A stretch of 64,000 bases of DNA from Spirochaetia bacterium (lineage in GTDB: Bacteria > Spirochaetota > Spirochaetia > UBA9216). This document shows positions 23,907 to 26,041 of the stretch, piece by piece. Each line of letters starts with the position of its first letter. Within the stretch, counting starts at the first letter, position 1. The stretch lies in NCBI GenBank assembly GCA_965140585.1, contig OZ223269.1:608001-672000 (forward strand), in the 5' to 3' direction. Both the position numbers and the translations under genes were made by a program. The notes below the pieces were generated by a model. The model made no database searches. It had not been told where the DNA came from and saw only the letters and a list, made by a program, of their open reading frames with translations.

Positions 23907-24440
23907 ATGAGTAGAGAATTTATTCTTGATGATGCTATAAGAAAGGTTCCGGATTTTCCCCATGAAGGAATACTGTTTTATGATATCACCAGTATTCTTA
24001 CCAATCCTGAGGCGTTCAGGCATTGTGTAGAAAGTATGGTGACCCTGTATAAAAATAAGAAAATTGATGCTGTTGCAGCCGCCGAAGCCAGAGGTTTTTT
24101 ATTTGCTGCGCCATTCTGTGAGAAGCTTGGTATTCCTTTGATTCTAATAAGAAAAAAAGGAAAGCTTCCCGGAGAGACTCTGACCAAAACTTACGCTCTG
24201 GAATACGGTGAAGACTCTATACAAATTCATAAATCAGATGTTGTCCCTGGAAGTAATGTTCTGCTTGTCGATGACCTGATTGCAACCGGCGGTACACTAA
24301 AAGCCGCCGCAGAACTGCTTGAAGAAGCCGGAGCAAAGGTTAATGAAGCATTCGGAGTTGTAGGGCTGCCGTTTCTCAATTATGAAAAGGTTCTTGAGGG
24401 AATAAATATAACAACCTTAATAAATTACCATAGCGAATAG
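23907..24440 (+). CDS. apt: Adenine phosphoribosyltransferase
   Basis: PDFPHEGILFYDI, EARGF, RKKGKLPG, YALEYG, VDDLIATGGT. Confidence 0.96.
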   Translation: MSREFILDDAIRKVPDFPHEGILFYDITSILTNPEAFRHCVESMVTLYKNKKIDAVAAAEARGFLFAAPFCEKLGIPLILIRKKGKLPGETLTKTYALEYGEDSIQIHKSDVVPGSNVLLVDDLIATGGTLKAAAELLEEAGAKVNEAFGVVGLPFLNYEKVLEGINITTLINYHSE

Positions 24441-24442
24441 TA

Positions 24443-24471
24443 TTGACACTAACTATCAATTTTAGTAGATT
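24443..24471 (+). promoter_or_regulatory. sigma70 promoter of tRNA operon
   Basis: TTGACA-17 nt-TAGATT. Confidence 0.75.
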
Positions 24472-24485
24472 ATGGCAACATAAAT

Positions 24486-24556
24486 TGCCCGATTGTGTAA
24501 TGGTAGCACGACGGATTCTGGTTCCGTTTGTGAGGGTTCGAGTCCTTCTCGGGCAG
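24486..24556 (+). tRNA. tRNA-Gln(CTG)
   Basis: Acceptor TGCCCGA/TCGGGCA, anticodon arm ACGGA-TTCTGGT-TCCGT, GTTCGAGTC T-loop; CCA not encoded. Confidence 0.93.
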
Positions 24557-24559
24557 TCT

Positions 24560-24764
24560 AACAAAAGCTGCTATGCAGTTTTTGTTTTGAAGTTTACATG
24601 GTAAACTTCATGGGGTGAGCATGGTAGCTCATTTCTGCAGTTTATTTTTTAAACTGCACCAATTTCCTTTGTTTTTCAGCTTTTGCTTAAAGTTTGTTTA
24701 ACAAACTTCCGGATAATTTATGGATGTTTCCGTAGGAAACTCCAAAAAAATCCTAAGGATTTTT
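24560..24764 (+). repeat. Array of about seven tandem short hairpins in the inter-tRNA spacer
   Basis: Stems at 24560-586, 24588-610, 24612-635, 24636-658, 24690-708, 24721-744 and 24746-764; four contain GTTT-N7-AAAC. Confidence 0.75.
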
Positions 24765-24765
24765 C

Positions 24766-24837
24766 GGTCCCTTCGTCTATCGGCTAGGACAGGAGATTCT
24801 CATTCTTCAAAGAGGGGTTCGATTCCCCTAGGGACTA
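24766..24837 (+). tRNA. tRNA-Glu(CTC)
   Basis: Acceptor GGTCCCT/AGGGACT, anticodon arm GGAGA-TTCTCAT-TCTTC, GGTTCGATTCC T arm. Confidence 0.92.
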
Positions 24838-24840
24838 AAA

Positions 24841-24867
24841 ACCGGCTTTGTTTGCCGGTATTTTTTT
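24841..24867 (+). terminator. Rho-independent terminator after tRNA-Glu
   Basis: ACCGGC-7 nt-GCCGGT followed by A and T7. Confidence 0.75.
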
Positions 24868-24874
24868 AAAGAGT

Positions 24875-24913
24875 AATGTATAAATATACATAAATTATGT
24901 ATATTTATAAATC
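24875..24913. promoter_or_regulatory. Tandem ARG boxes (ArgR operator) upstream of carA
   Basis: AATGTATAAATATACATA-AAT-TATGTATATTTATAAATC: 18-3-18 geometry resembling the ArgR consensus TGAATWWWWATTCA. Confidence 0.72.
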
Positions 24914-24919
24914 AGGATT

Positions 24920-26041
24920 ATGACTATGAACAGAAACGGATATCTTGTATTAGAAGACGGAACAGCTTTTCCCGGCAGGTGCTTCGGTGCTGAACCCGGA
25001 CAGCTTGCAGAGGGTGAAGTTGTTTTTAACACCGGAATGAGCGGATATCATGAGATATTTACCGATCCATCATATACAGGTCAAATTGTAATGATGACAT
25101 ATCCGCATATCGGAAATTACGGTATTGATGAAGAATGGTCCGAAAGCGGACCTGAGGGTAAAGAGCGAAACCCGGTAAAGATTCGCGGCTTTGTAGTCAG
25201 ATCTGTATACCTCGGGTCGGTTCCCGGAAGTCGCGGCAGCATCGATGATTATTTCAAATCGAATAATATATCGGCTATCAGCGATGTTGATACAAGAGCC
25301 CTGACACTAAAGCTACGTGAAGGCGGAAGCCTAAAAGGCTGTATTATAAAAACCGATGGTACTGATGATAAGGCAGCCATTGAAAAGGCAGTTGCAGGAC
25401 TCAAGGCTATGCCTGATATGCAGGGGCAGAACCTGATAGGCGATGTCGGTACAAGTGAACGGCTTACAATAAACGCCGGGCAGAAAGTGAAGTTTGCTGT
25501 AGTTGACTGCGGAATCAAATCCAATATCATCACGGAGCTTACTTCACGCGGGGTCACCGTTGAGCTTTTTCCTTCAACCGCGAGTGCAGAGGAAATCCTT
25601 TCAGCTAAAACCGACGCTGTACTTTTCTCGAACGGTCCCGGCGACCCCGCAGTTCTAAAAGACCAGATTAAGCTGGTTCAGGACCTTTTCGATAAACTTC
25701 CGGTCTGCGGAATCTGTCTGGGGCATCAGCTAATATCTCTTGCTCTCGGTGCAGAAACCTACAAGATGAAGTTCGGTCATCACGGTATAAACAATCCTGT
25801 ACGTGACGAACTTACAGGACGGGTTTTTGTAACGAGTCAGAACCACGGATTTGCTGTAAAACAGGAATCGCTTCCTGAAGGTACCGACATCTGGTTCATG
25901 AATGCAAATGATAAAACAGTAGAGGGAATTATCAATCAGAAAAGAAATATTGCCTGCGTACAGTTTCATCCCGAAGCTGCACCTGGTCCTGAGGATACTT
26001 CCTGGATCTTTGATAAATACGTAGAGATGGCAAAGGCTTAA
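24920..26041 (+). CDS. carA: Carbamoyl-phosphate synthase small subunit
   Basis: [39 protein letters not shown]. Confidence 0.97.

What the first reader, a model, noticed from the sequence alone, without database searches (positions are those of the whole stretch)
24557..24765. Inter-tRNA spacer built from back-to-back hairpins sharing GTTT-N7-AAAC geometry
Seen: the 209 nt between tRNA-Gln(CTG) and tRNA-Glu(CTC) hold about seven stems. H1 AACAAAAGCTGC-tat-GCAGTTTTTGTT; H2 TGAAGTTTAC-atg-GTAAACTTCA; H3 GGGGTGAGC-atggta-GCTCATTTC; H4 TGCAGTTTA-ttttt-TAAACTGCA; H5 AAGTTTGT-tta-ACAAACTT; H6 TGGA(t)GTTTCC-gta-GGAAACTCCA; H7 AAAAATCC-taa-GGATTTTT. Five have 3-nt loops. H2, H4, H5 and H6 are all GTTT-N7-AAACT with different, self-complementary interiors, resembling covariation between copies. 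G-U pairs in H1 and H3 favour plus-strand RNA structure. The segment lies between the tRNA promoter and terminator, so tRNA processing should release it. Inference: an undescribed tRNA-excised multi-hairpin ncRNA (for example a multivalent protein sponge or processing scaffold), or an array of dyad protein-binding sites. I recognise no named family.
Basis: partly seen in the sequence, partly recalled or inferred. Interest (0 to 1): 0.78.

Follow-up and report, generated by a model that had tools for sequence, protein, structure and literature searches.

The report
TD-type hairpin repeats filling a tRNA spacer
The long gap between two tRNA genes is packed with copies of a small hairpin repeat that is scattered through this spirochaete family's genomes and is related to the orphan TD-1/TD-2 RNA motifs, so it is a real and orderly structure but not a one-off new RNA gene.

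Summary
The 209 nt between tRNA-Gln(CTG) and tRNA-Glu(CTC) contain the seven stems described. The fold is far better than shuffles (z -7.8). GTTT-N7-AAACT occurs at four sites here, against about one match expected in the whole 64-kb window.

The stems are not unique to this locus. H6 is a hairpin with a conserved bulged base and a freely varying upper stem, followed by a second hairpin (H7). This two-hairpin module is dispersed in sister genomes: 26, 15, 9 and 6 exact-pattern copies. It lies after stop codons, in rRNA spacers and beside other tRNAs. It corresponds to hairpins 2-3 of Rfam TD-2 and, reverse-complemented, to hairpin 1 of TD-1. These are orphan motifs described in 2007 from Treponema denticola. 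The spacer itself scores below both Rfam thresholds.

A model built only from sister-genome copies finds H6 (30.7 bits), then H2 and H4 in reverse orientation. The spacer therefore reads Gln | H1-H2 | H3-H4 | linker | H5 | H6-H7 | Glu. The same tRNA pair is 1-13 nt apart outside this family.

Most likely it is a lineage-specific stack of TD-type repeat modules, co-transcribed and cut out during tRNA processing. A dedicated sponge RNA remains untested because no RNA-seq exists for this organism. Interest is moderate.

The parts
24443..24471 (+). Sigma-70-like promoter (TTGACA, 17 nt, TAGATT) upstream of tRNA-Gln. It is the only promoter-like site on the plus strand in 24300-25000.
   Evidence: consensus match only
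24485..24558 (+). tRNA-Gln(CTG). Rfam places it at 24486-24556. No CCA is encoded.
   Evidence: sequence
24560..24586 (+). H1: a 12-bp A/T-rich hairpin with a 3-nt loop and one G.U pair, starting 3 nt after the tRNA-Gln 3' end. It is read as the gene-proximal companion hairpin (A') of module 1.
   Evidence: Outer pairs differ on both arms from the same-genus genome G001.
24588..24610 (+). H2: a 10-bp perfect hairpin of the form GAAGTTT..AAACTTC. It is a B-type core hairpin that matches the model better in reverse orientation (B').
   Evidence: Model R1 gives 11.5 bits, E 1.2, at 24585-24613 on the minus strand, the second best hit in the window. Three upper pairs differ on both arms from G001.
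24612..24635 (+). H3: a 9-bp hairpin with a 6-nt loop ATGGTA and three G.U pairs at its base, so it is plus-strand specific. It is the companion hairpin (A') of module 2.
   Evidence: It is absent, together with H4, from G001 as a single 49-nt indel.
24636..24658 (+). H4: a 9-bp perfect hairpin of the form GCAGTTT..AAACTGC. It is a degenerate B-type hairpin in reverse orientation.
   Evidence: R1 gives 8.7 bits, E 6.1, at 24633-24661 on the minus strand. This is weak on its own.
24659..24689 (+). Pyrimidine-rich linker with little predicted structure. It is nearly identical in G001.
24690..24708 (+). H5: an 8-bp perfect hairpin of the form AAGTTTGT..ACAAACTT. It is B-like and aligned by Rfam to the first hairpin of TD-1.
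   Evidence: R1 does not report it at E<=10.
24721..24744 (+). H6: the canonical B hairpin, TGGA-T-GTTT[CC-gta-GG]AAACTCCA, with a bulged T at 24725.
   Evidence: R1 gives 30.7 bits, E 1.2e-5, the best hit in the window. It is one of only 4 hits with E<0.001 in the whole genome. It is conserved in the same place and orientation in G001, G004, G006, G007 and G008.
24746..24764 (+). H7: an 8-bp A/T-rich hairpin ending 1 nt before tRNA-Glu. It is the companion hairpin (A) of the H6 module.
   Evidence: It is aligned to the third hairpin of TD-1 and is identical in G001.
24766..24837 (+). tRNA-Glu(CTC). No CCA is encoded.
24841..24868 (+). Intrinsic-terminator-like hairpin followed by a T run, closing the two-tRNA unit.
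   Evidence: consensus match only

Best explanation
**What it is.** The spacer is a lineage-specific stack of small hairpin-repeat modules of the TD-1/TD-2 kind that has grown inside a two-tRNA operon.

**The module.**
- The core hairpin (B) has a conserved base, (T)GGA-Y-GTTT ... AAACTCC(A), with one bulged pyrimidine. Its upper stem and loop are free to vary as long as they pair.
- A second, wholly variable hairpin (A) lies next to B.

**Layout of the spacer.** tRNA-Gln | A'(H1) B'(H2) | A'(H3) B'(H4) | linker | B-like H5 | B(H6) A(H7) | tRNA-Glu. The A hairpins face the tRNAs and the B hairpins face inward.

**How it works.**
- Inferred: the whole unit is transcribed from the single promoter and the spacer is released when the tRNA ends are cut. 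Neither tRNA encodes CCA.
- Inferred: the hairpins act, if at all, at the RNA level. They would be self-contained stem-loops that keep the neighbouring tRNAs folding independently and cap processed ends. The same modules could play this role directly after stop codons, in rRNA spacers and beside other tRNAs in sister genomes.
- On this reading it is not a dedicated small-RNA gene.
- Shown here: the anatomy, the family relationship, the lineage-specific expansion, and the maintenance of pairing.
For: **1. The family is dispersed.**
- The pattern GGAYGTTT-N5-15-AAACTCC gives these copy numbers: G006 26, G007 15, G009 9, G004 6, G000 4, G005 3, G003 2, G008 1. The reversed-pattern control gives 0-2 per genome.
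- Of 52 distinct sister-genome copies, 42 have a perfectly self-complementary interior down to a loop of 5 nt or less.

**2. The link to TD-1/TD-2.**
- TD-2 consensus hairpins 2-3 and TD-1 hairpin 1, with its bulged A, have the same core.
- TD-2 scores 39.4 bits on one B-A copy of G007 and 29.1 bits on the rRNA-spacer copies of G000.
- It scores 54.1 bits, over the 48.7 cut-off, at C6:268628-268712 of G000.
- TD-2 matches at E<=1 number 42, 32, 27 and 11 in G007, G009, G006 and G004. None of 14 control genomes scores over the cut-off.

**3. An independent model finds the spacer.**
- R1 was built from 38 sister-genome copies. None came from G000 or from any Gln-Glu spacer.
- It finds H6 at 30.7 bits as the best hit of the window. 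H2 and H4 on the minus strand rank 2nd and 5th.
- In the whole genome only 4 hits have E<0.001: H6 and three 23S-5S spacer copies.

**4. The expansion is lineage-specific.**
- The Gln-Glu pair is found in 29 of 30 loci examined.
- The spacer is 101-232 nt in 9 genomes, all of family f1. It is 1-13 nt in the other 20.
- It is about 8-15 nt in TD-rich genomes outside f1.

**5. The architecture is conserved.** R1 scores in orthologous spacers:
- B in sense just before tRNA-Glu: G007 31.1, G006 29.5, G004 28.4, G008 19.1, G001 12.2 bits.
- B' after tRNA-Gln: G006 17.8, G007 12.4, G009 9.8 bits.

**6. Pairing is maintained.**
- Between G000 and G001 the 3' half is about 96% identical. Yet H1 and H2 differ on both arms with pairing kept, and H3+H4 form one 49-nt indel.
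- On the 38-sequence alignment, 96.8% of cells pair against 82.3% in shuffles, and 56 cells change on both sides against 11.5. The rows were chosen for interior pairing, so this count is partly circular.

**7. RNA-level hint.**
- 11 of 49 copies carry one non-Watson-Crick interior pair.
- 10 of these 11 are G.T or A.C.
- 6 of the 7 with an inferable transcription direction are G.U on the transcribed strand.
- H1 and H3 have G.U pairs on the plus strand only.

**8. Other spacers.** Other inter-tRNA spacers of this genome are also hairpin-filled, with z -8.0, -6.5 and -4.1.
Against: **Membership is weak by score.**
- The spacer scores far below the Rfam thresholds: TD-1 21.7 of 64.5 bits, TD-2 23.0 of 48.7.
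- The H2 and H4 matches to R1 are weak alone (E 1.2 and 6.1, with rough calibration). H5 is not reported at all.

**No RNA data.** No RNA-seq of this organism was found. Co-transcription, excision and any RNA-level role are inferred.

**Orientation is not fixed.**
- The B-A module before tRNA-Glu has the opposite orientation to the commonest mRNA context.
- 18 of 49 intergenic copies have a gene or tRNA on the opposite strand ending 12-32 nt beyond B.
- A DNA-level element inserting either way would explain this more simply.

**Distribution is patchy.**
- G001 and G010 have no exact-pattern copy, and TD-2 gives no match in G001.
- An indispensable processing signal would not be expected to be missing there.

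**Other caveats.**
- The fold is almost as good on the minus strand.
- The wobble test rests on 7 cases (one-sided sign test about 0.06, my arithmetic).
- Transcription direction in that test was inferred from crude ORF calls.
Confidence: 0.55

Rival explanations
1. The spacer is purely selfish or neutral palindromic DNA. The modules are REP- or MITE-like repeats that insert or duplicate at the DNA level in either orientation. They keep perfect arms through hairpin-templated correction during replication. They persist in the tRNA spacer only because the spacer is discarded, and they have no RNA function.
For: - Distribution and copy number are patchy: 0 to 26 exact copies and 0 to 42 TD-2 matches among 11 genomes of one family.
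- In a class sample the family appears in two separate lineages.
- Both orientations occur within stable-RNA operons.
- Tandem arrays exist: 48-nt units in G006 (L216), and an ORF-poor repeat field of about 2.7 kb at G006:C43.
- A whole module differs as one 49-nt indel between G000 and G001.
- Several simultaneous two-arm changes occur between same-genus genomes. Templated correction explains this easily.
Against: - No Y1/RAYT transposase was found in G000, G001, G006 or G007, although G006 and G007 have the most copies. G002 has the transposase and no copies.
- Upper stems differ completely in sequence and length between copies of one genome. Recent transposition of a master copy would not predict that.
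- Placement is strongly biased to directly after stop codons in one orientation.
- The wobble test gives 6 of 7 G.U on the transcribed strand.
- The H6-H7 module has kept the same place and orientation across three genera.
Confidence: 0.25
2. After excision the ~209-nt spacer is a stable multi-hairpin RNA. It displays four B-type helices and titrates a hairpin-binding protein, or scaffolds processing enzymes.
For: - Hairpins begin 3 nt after the tRNA-Gln end and stop 1 nt before tRNA-Glu. An excised product would therefore be capped at both ends.
- Four related helices sit in one molecule.
- The conserved bulged base of B looks like a protein recognition site.
- tRNA-spacer-derived sponge RNAs are known in E. 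coli (search listing and start of abstracts only).
Against: - No expression data exist.
- The number of B-type helices in orthologous spacers varies from about 1 to 5, and G001 lacks one module.
- The same modules occur singly after ordinary genes, so the tRNA spacer is not a special home.
- None of the four GGA triplets of the spacer lies in a predicted loop.
Confidence: 0.1
3. The spacer is a hairpin-cluster attenuator. The stems after tRNA-Gln partially terminate or pause transcription, so tRNA-Glu(CTC) is made at a lower level than tRNA-Gln(CTG).
For: - H1 has A-rich and T-rich arms and is followed by TTTTG.
- In sister genomes A'-B' pairs sit directly after stop codons.
- A published analysis reports that hairpin clusters mark many termination sites, including 277 of 503 units in T. 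denticola (passages read).
Against: - The terminator scan calls nothing inside the spacer.
- In G004 one module lies in an 84-nt gap between two aminoacyl-tRNA synthetase genes on one strand. B ends 31 nt from the downstream ORF's start. A terminator there would be harmful.
- In B the T run lies 5' of the stem and the A run 3', the reverse of an intrinsic terminator.
- tRNA-Glu(CTC) has no promoter-like site of its own.
Confidence: 0.05
4. The spacer is an array of dyad-symmetric double-stranded DNA sites for a dimeric regulator of the tRNA operon.
For: Four sites share GTTT-N7-AAAC at the same spacing.
Against: - The motif is not enriched genome-wide: 137 matches, like the other spacings tested.
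- In the wider family the half-site distance ranges over N5-N15, and the interior is self-complementary in 42 of 52 copies. A dimer site does not need that.
- Most copies lie after stop codons, not at promoters.
Confidence: 0.03

Closest known systems
TD-2 RNA motif (Rfam RF03162, clan CL00124; Weinberg et al. 2007, PMC1950547, passages read)
   Same: - The central hairpin has the form GAGUUU[variable stem-loop]AAACUC and is followed after 2 nt by a second, variable hairpin. This is the B-A module.
- It is multi-copy and sometimes tandem.
- The family is genuinely present in this genome (54.1 bits at C6:268628-268712) and abundant in sister genomes.
   Different: - The spacer scores only 23.0 bits against a cut-off of 48.7.
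- The spacer lacks TD-2's first hairpin. It also lacks the GGA-bearing loops seen in 21 and 23 of 24 full copies.
- The f1 B hairpin carries a bulged pyrimidine that the TD-2 consensus lacks.
- The paper reported TD-2 only in T. denticola. Here it is in another family, and it lies in tRNA and rRNA spacers.
TD-1 RNA motif (Rfam RF03155; same paper)
   Same: - Its first hairpin, GAGUUU..AAAC-a-UC, is the reverse complement of B, including the bulge.
- Rfam aligns its three hairpins to H5, H6 and H7.
- The paper notes that TD-1 overlaps reverse complements of TD-2. This matches the two orientations seen here.
   Different: - The score is 21.7 bits against a cut-off of 64.5.
- No TD-1 hit over the cut-off exists anywhere in this genome.
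- TD-1 was described upstream of protein genes. Here the module precedes a tRNA.
REP/BIME elements of enterobacteria and pseudomonads with their RAYT transposases (PMC3333891 and PMC3116915, search listing and start of abstracts only; details recalled)
   Same: - Both are short imperfect extragenic palindromes.
- Both are multi-copy and occur in both orientations.
- Both are often paired in inverted orientation.
- Both are typically found just after stop codons or between cistrons.
   Different: - No Y1 transposase was found in the copy-rich genomes.
- Only the helix base is conserved, and the upper stems vary freely.
- No conserved 5' tetranucleotide of the REP kind was looked for.
tRNA-precursor spacer RNAs that act as sponges in E. 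coli (3' external transcribed spacer of leuZ, search listing only; details recalled)
   Same: A by-product of tRNA operon processing could be a functional RNA.
   Different: - Those act by base-pairing to small RNAs with Hfq, not through repeated hairpins.
- Nothing here shows stability or a partner.
Hairpin-cluster terminators (Sci Rep 2021, PMC8355165; passages read)
   Same: Two or more adjacent hairpins lie close to stop codons, and this is frequent in T. denticola.
   Different: - That class is defined by position and energy, not by a conserved bulged helix.
- The spacer's stems lie inside an operon that needs read-through.

Membership tests
TD-2 (RF03162) | Covariance-model score at or above the gathering score of 48.7 bits | tested here: not met
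   The spacer scores 23.0 bits, E 1.1, at 24691-24769 on the plus strand. Elsewhere the threshold is met: 54.1 bits in this genome and many copies in sister genomes.
TD-2 (RF03162) | Central hairpin GAGUUU-stem-AAACUC followed by a variable hairpin | tested here: met
   The consensus is shown. H6-H7 fit it, as does H2 with its neighbour. The independent model R1 scores H6 at 30.7 bits.
TD-2 (RF03162) | Flanking hairpins whose loops carry GGA (seen in the consensus and in f1 copies) | tested here: not met
   Full f1 copies have GGA in the loop of hairpin 1 in 21 of 24 and of hairpin 3 in 23 of 24. In the spacer the H3 loop is ATGGTA, and the GGA of H7 lies in the stem.
TD-1 (RF03155) | Covariance-model score at or above 64.5 bits | tested here: not met
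   The spacer scores 21.7 bits, E 0.14, at 24680-24768. The best score in the whole genome is 16.7 bits.
TD-1 (RF03155) | First hairpin with a one-base bulge between the outer 2-3 pairs and the GUUU/AAAC helix | tested here: met
   The consensus structure line shows the bulged 'a'. H6 has the complementary bulged T at 24725.
REP/BIME with RAYT | A Y1 (IS200/IS605-type) transposase gene in genomes that carry the repeats | tested here: not met
   PF01797 was found in 3 of 11 family genomes (G002, G004, G005). It was not found in G000, G001, G006 or G007.
REP/BIME with RAYT | Multi-copy extragenic imperfect palindromes, often just after genes | tested here: met
   49 of 57 copies lie outside long ORFs, and 18 have a gene or tRNA end 12-32 nt beyond B.
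Intrinsic terminator | G+C-rich stem followed by a U run | tested here: not met
   The scan finds only the site at 24841-24859 and none inside the spacer.
CsrB/Rsm-type protein sponge | Many GGA motifs presented in hairpin loops | tested here: not met
   The spacer has four GGA triplets and none lies in a predicted loop. A csrA gene is present in the genome. The definition is recalled.
Integron attC site | Inverse core (..AAC) at the 5' end and core (GTT..) at the 3' end of the folded strand | tested here: not met
   The order in B is GTTT...AAAC on both strands. The definition is recalled, and no attC model was run.
Functional tRNA-spacer RNA | Accumulation of the excised spacer as a discrete RNA | not testable with these tools
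   No run held half or more of the stretch's sampled words as RNA. The six RNA runs listed hold 4-5% of the words, and I did not lay them.

The most novel reading that the evidence does not exclude
- The bulged B helix is the recognition site of an unidentified RNA-binding or RNA-cutting protein. This protein would mark the boundaries of stable RNAs and of highly expressed mRNAs in these spirochaetes.
- The excised Gln-Glu spacer carries up to four such helices and is capped by hairpins at both ends. It would be a decoy made in proportion to tRNA transcription, tying the activity of that factor to growth rate.
- By extension, the orphan TD-1/TD-2 motifs would be a protein-binding RNA system rather than junk. 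The full copies carry two GGA loops about 55-60 nt apart, and the genome has csrA.
Probability: 0.1. Interest if true: 0.75.

Novelty: new variant of a known kind. Interest (0 to 1): 0.45.

Why it matters
TD-1 and TD-2 have stood in Rfam since 2007 as orphan motifs reported from a single species. This locus led to four points.

- **A minimal unit.** The conserved core is a two-hairpin module. Only a bulged helix base is fixed, and the rest covaries freely.
- **Wider distribution.** The family is abundant in a second spirochaete family that appears, from the few record titles seen, to be known mainly from metagenome-assembled genomes.
- **Placement rules.** It sits directly after stop codons, in rRNA spacers and beside tRNAs.
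- **A datable insertion.** A tRNA pair that is 1-13 nt apart elsewhere has been expanded to 101-232 nt by these modules and has kept them across three genera.

These points make the function question testable. One can ask what binds the bulged helix, and whether the modules alter RNA end formation. For annotation, the finding warns that long, highly structured tRNA spacers in these genomes are repeat insertions rather than new RNA genes.

Tried and rejected
**Leads that gave nothing or were set aside.**
- BLAST of the spacer against its own genome found only itself. Other hits were 22 nt or shorter with E>=0.19. The relationship to other copies is visible only at the level of structure and motif.
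The records listed were almost all from unrelated phyla, with two Spirochaet* records. It was uninformative, and the pattern was too loose for 596 Gb.
- The RAYT/Y1 transposase link was rejected.
- The integron attC reading was rejected on the order of the core sequences. The definition is recalled.
- A sigma-54 or internal sigma-70 promoter in front of H6 was considered by eye. The scan finds none.
- Small ORFs: only 22-62-aa frames overlap the spacer and tRNAs, and none is credible.
- The CsrA-sponge reading of the spacer was set aside because no GGA lies in a predicted loop.
- Sequencing runs: one run holds 93% of the sampled words, probably the source genome, and one holds 31%. RNA runs hold 4-5% only. 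I laid no reads, so nothing can be said about expression or habitat.
- Paper supplements are closed. The TD-1/TD-2 alignments and instance lists of Weinberg et al. 2007 may be in supplements that I could not see.
- Structure prediction, complex prediction, read laying and the protein searches were not used, because the feature is non-coding.

**Limits of the counts.**
- Alignment A1 used 38 of the 52 distinct copies. I kept those with a perfectly paired interior and lengths that align without odd gaps. The ten imperfect copies were dropped, as were L191, L198, L212 and L223.
- In the context table 8 of 57 copies fell inside long ORFs. Some of these are probably chance matches (L177, L185, L226).
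- Transcription direction for the wobble test was assigned by me.
Full report
**1. The observation**

The window holds tRNA-Gln(CTG) at 24485-24558 (Rfam 24486-24556) and tRNA-Glu(CTC) at 24766-24837.

All seven stems are present at these coordinates:
- H1 24560-24586
- H2 24588-24610
- H3 24612-24635
- H4 24636-24658
- H5 24690-24708
- H6 24721-24744, with a bulged T
- H7 24746-24764

RNAfold recovers them.
- The plus strand folds at -70.9 kcal/mol, z -7.76, with 0 of 200 shuffles as good.
- The minus strand folds nearly as well, z -7.50.
- The minus strand loses most of H3. The base of H3 has three G.U pairs, and H1 has one.

The genome holds 983 perfect hairpins of stem >=8 and loop 3-7 (0.2 per kb). 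Four of them lie in these 207 nt.

GTTT-N7-AAACT gives 8 matches in the window against 1.17 expected. Seven of the 8 are the four sites H2, H4, H5 and H6. Genome-wide, this spacing is not enriched: 137 against 140-154 for other spacings.

A single promoter-like site (24443-24471) and a single terminator-like site (24841-24859) bracket the two tRNAs. No credible ORF lies in the spacer. The flanking genes are a phosphoribosyltransferase and the small chain of carbamoyl-phosphate synthase.

**2. The spacer is a lineage-specific expansion**

The Gln(CTG)-Glu(CTC) pair is conserved across the class. Of 30 loci fetched from 30 genomes, 29 hold both tRNAs.
- The gap is 1-13 nt in 20 of them: 19 from other families plus G002.
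- The gap is 101-232 nt in 9, all from the window's own family f1: G000 207, G001 158, G007 214, G006 132, G004 178, G008 101, G010 120, G009 232, G005 131.

All nine long spacers fold much better than shuffles, with z -3.8 to -8.0. Other inter-tRNA spacers of this genome are also filled with hairpins, with z -8.0, -6.5 and -4.1.

**3. The stems belong to a dispersed repeat**

By sequence the spacer is unique in its genome. However, the H6 hairpin recurs.

In G000 the pattern GGA-Y-GTTT...AAACTCC occurs four times. One copy is H6. The other three lie in the three 23S-5S rRNA spacers, there antisense to the rRNA.

In the family the exact pattern (interior N5-15) gives the following counts. The reversed-pattern control gives 0-2 per genome.

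| Genome | Copies |
|---|---|
| G006 | 26 |
| G007 | 15 |
| G009 | 9 |
| G004 | 6 |
| G000 | 4 |
| G005 | 3 |
| G003 | 2 |
| G008 | 1 |
| G001, G002, G010 | 0 |

The pattern left the interior unconstrained. Even so, the interior is perfectly self-complementary down to a loop of 5 nt or less in 42 of 52 distinct sister-genome copies. Stems of 2 to 7 pairs have quite different sequences.

A second, variable hairpin follows B after 1-4 nt in the copies displayed. I call the pair B-A.

Across 301 genomes of the class, multi-copy hairpin-forming matches are seen in f1, in G239 (17 copies) and in G114 (4 copies). Elsewhere there are 0-2 matches, mostly without a paired interior.

**4. Relation to known families**

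Rfam gives no hit over threshold in the spacer. The best non-tRNA matches are TD-1 (21.7 bits, E 0.14, 24680-24768) and TD-2 (23.0 bits).

The printed alignments show why.
- The second and third hairpins of TD-2 are GAGUUU[stem-loop]AAACUC, then 2 nt, then a variable hairpin. That is B-A.
- The first hairpin of TD-1 is the reverse complement, including a one-base bulge.

TD-2 scores elsewhere:
- 39.4 bits on a B-A copy of G007.
- 29.1 bits on the rRNA-spacer copies of G000.
- 54.1 bits, over the cut-off, at C6:268628-268712 of G000.

In the family, TD-2 matches at E<=1 number 42 (G007), 32 (G009), 27 (G006), 11 (G004), 6 (G008), 6 (G010) and 5 (G000). Hits over the cut-off occur in 6 of 11 genomes and in 0 of 14 control genomes.

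In a class sample of 151 genomes, 9 have hits over the cut-off.
- 5 of the 9 are G000 and the four sampled genomes of genus g4 in f1.
- The other 4 are all four sampled genomes of one other genus, g38, with 24-25 scored hits each.

The only paper in the library that treats these motifs is Weinberg et al. 2007 (searches; passages read). It reports:
- 28 TD-1 and 36 TD-2 copies, in T. denticola only.
- Covariation and modular stems.
- Overlap of TD-1 with reverse complements of TD-2.
- No proposed function.

**5. Anatomy of the spacer as modules**

I built a covariance model (R1) from 38 B hairpins of sister genomes. None came from G000 or from any Gln-Glu spacer.

Searched over the whole window with filters off, it gives:
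- H6 as the best hit: 30.7 bits, E 1.2e-5.
- H2 on the minus strand as second best: 11.5 bits, E 1.2.
- H4 on the minus strand as fifth: 8.7 bits, E 6.1.

A hit at these E-values would land in a given 207-nt stretch of a 64-kb window about 0.004 and 0.02 times by chance (my arithmetic). Their co-location is therefore meaningful even though each is weak.

Read on the minus strand, H2 is followed by H1 and H4 by H3. On the transcript the order is A'(H1)-B'(H2) and A'(H3)-B'(H4) after tRNA-Gln, and B(H6)-A(H7) before tRNA-Glu. H5 is a further B-like stem that R1 does not report.

R1 finds the same architecture in orthologous spacers.
- B before tRNA-Glu, in sense: G007 31.1, G006 29.5, G004 28.4, G008 19.1, G001 12.2 bits.
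- B' after tRNA-Gln: G006 17.8, G007 12.4, G009 9.8 bits.

In the whole G000 genome only four R1 hits have E<0.001: H6 and the three rRNA copies.

**6. Where the modules sit elsewhere**

Of 57 copies with flanks, 49 lie outside long ORFs.
- In 18 of the 49, a gene or tRNA on the opposite strand ends 12-32 nt beyond B. The A hairpin abuts or overlaps the stop codon, and the transcript would read stop-A'-B'.
- The genes include a Cpn60 chaperonin, a TPP-dependent enzyme, an ABC permease followed by its binding protein, and two adjacent aminoacyl-tRNA synthetases.

The same A'-B' order follows tRNA-Lys(TTT) in the Lys-Glu(TTC) spacer of G004, G006 and G007. In G000 that spacer is only 29 nt.

The opposite order, B-A in sense, is found:
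- In front of tRNA-Arg(CCG) in G006, as three tandem 48-nt units.
- In the 16S leader of G007, as two units.
- After tRNA-Ile in G007.
- After 5S in G005.

In the contexts read here (the copies after stop codons and those beside tRNA and rRNA genes), A faces the gene and B lies distal.

**7. RNA or DNA?**

*For pairing being maintained.*
- Between G000 and the same-genus genome G001 the 3' half of the spacer is about 96% identical. Yet the outer part of H1 and the upper three pairs of H2 differ on both arms with pairing kept. The lower stem of H6 also changes on both arms.
- H3+H4 differ as one 49-nt indel, which is exactly one module.
- On alignment A1, 96.8% of cells pair against 82.3% in shuffles, and 56 cells change on both sides against 11.5. 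All slid controls are far lower. These rows were chosen for interior pairing, so the figure is partly circular.

*For RNA.*
- 11 of 49 copies have a single non-Watson-Crick interior pair.
- 10 of these 11 are G.T or A.C.
- Of the 7 with an inferable direction, 6 are G.U on the transcribed strand.
- H1 and H3 show G.U on the plus strand.

*For DNA.*
- Both orientations occur within stable-RNA operons.
- Copy number is patchy.
- Tandem arrays exist.
- Two-arm changes could come from hairpin-templated correction.

No Y1 transposase accompanies the repeats. No RNA-seq of the organism is available.

**8. Verdict**

That the spacer is built from TD-type B-A modules is well supported. I put it at about 0.85.

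What the modules do is open. My odds are:

| Reading | Probability |
|---|---|
| RNA-level, generic boundary hairpins that insulate and cap ends, removed with the spacer | 0.55 (identity and mechanism together) |
| Purely selfish DNA palindromes | 0.25 |
| Stable excised decoy or scaffold RNA | 0.10 |
| Attenuator | 0.05 |
| Duplex DNA sites | 0.03 |

It is a new variant and a new context of a known but unexplained kind. Interest is moderate.

Noticed in passing
window 24879-24909: A perfect 14-bp inverted repeat with a 3-nt loop, made only of A and T apart from one C-G pair, lies between the tRNA terminator and the start of the carbamoyl-phosphate synthase small-chain gene (24920). A minus-strand promoter-like match overlaps it. 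It may be an operator of the car genes.
   Followed up: no
L222 = G006:C43:1-3853 (repeats to about 2760); also L217, L220, L221: An ORF-poor field of about 2.7 kb is made of 100-340-nt repeat units built from B-A hairpins. It includes a sub-family in which the 'conserved' helix base itself has changed on both arms (TGGC-T-CTTTT ... AAAAGGCCA). Similar pieces sit at several contig ends of G006, so they break the assembly.
   Followed up: partly
L231-L250 (24 full TD-2 copies of G004, G006-G010): - In full TD-2 copies the loops of hairpins 1 and 3 carry GGA in 21 and 23 of 24 copies. One of the 21 rests on the 2-nt context window.
- In about half of the 24 copies displayed, the 5' flank reads as the reverse complement of a ribosome-binding site plus start codon (by eye). 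Those elements would sit just upstream of a gene on the other strand.
- The genome encodes CsrA (C4:341247-341402).
- A CsrA link is only an idea.
   Followed up: partly
L216 = G006:C10:42814-45933, units at locus 1501-1620: Three tandem 48-nt B-A units end 62 nt upstream of tRNA-Arg(CCG), in the same orientation as the tRNA.
   Followed up: partly
G000 C1:503024-503172, C9:280715-280837, C1:164031-164179, C9:25674-25809: Other clusters of long perfect hairpins (about 15-bp stems with 7-9-nt loops) have recurring loop sequences. They may be a second hairpin-repeat family in the window's genome.
   Followed up: no
G000 C2:201845-202057 (minus strand): The only other long spacer between co-oriented tRNA genes (213 nt, Thr-Trp) is not hairpin-rich (z -2.0). 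By eye it holds a small ORF that looks like ribosomal protein L33. This was not tested with any tool.
   Followed up: no
G000 C4:197195, C4:205970, C9:353976: A further B-like hairpin, GAAGTTTGGT..ACCAAACTTC, lies about 65 nt after each 5S rRNA gene. Each rRNA operon therefore carries at least two TD-type stems.
   Followed up: partly
class sample, genomes G043, G070, G115, G154 (genus g38) and G239: TD-2 is abundant in two separate families of the class and rare or missing in the rest of the sample. This patchy pattern suggests independent expansion or transfer.
   Followed up: partly
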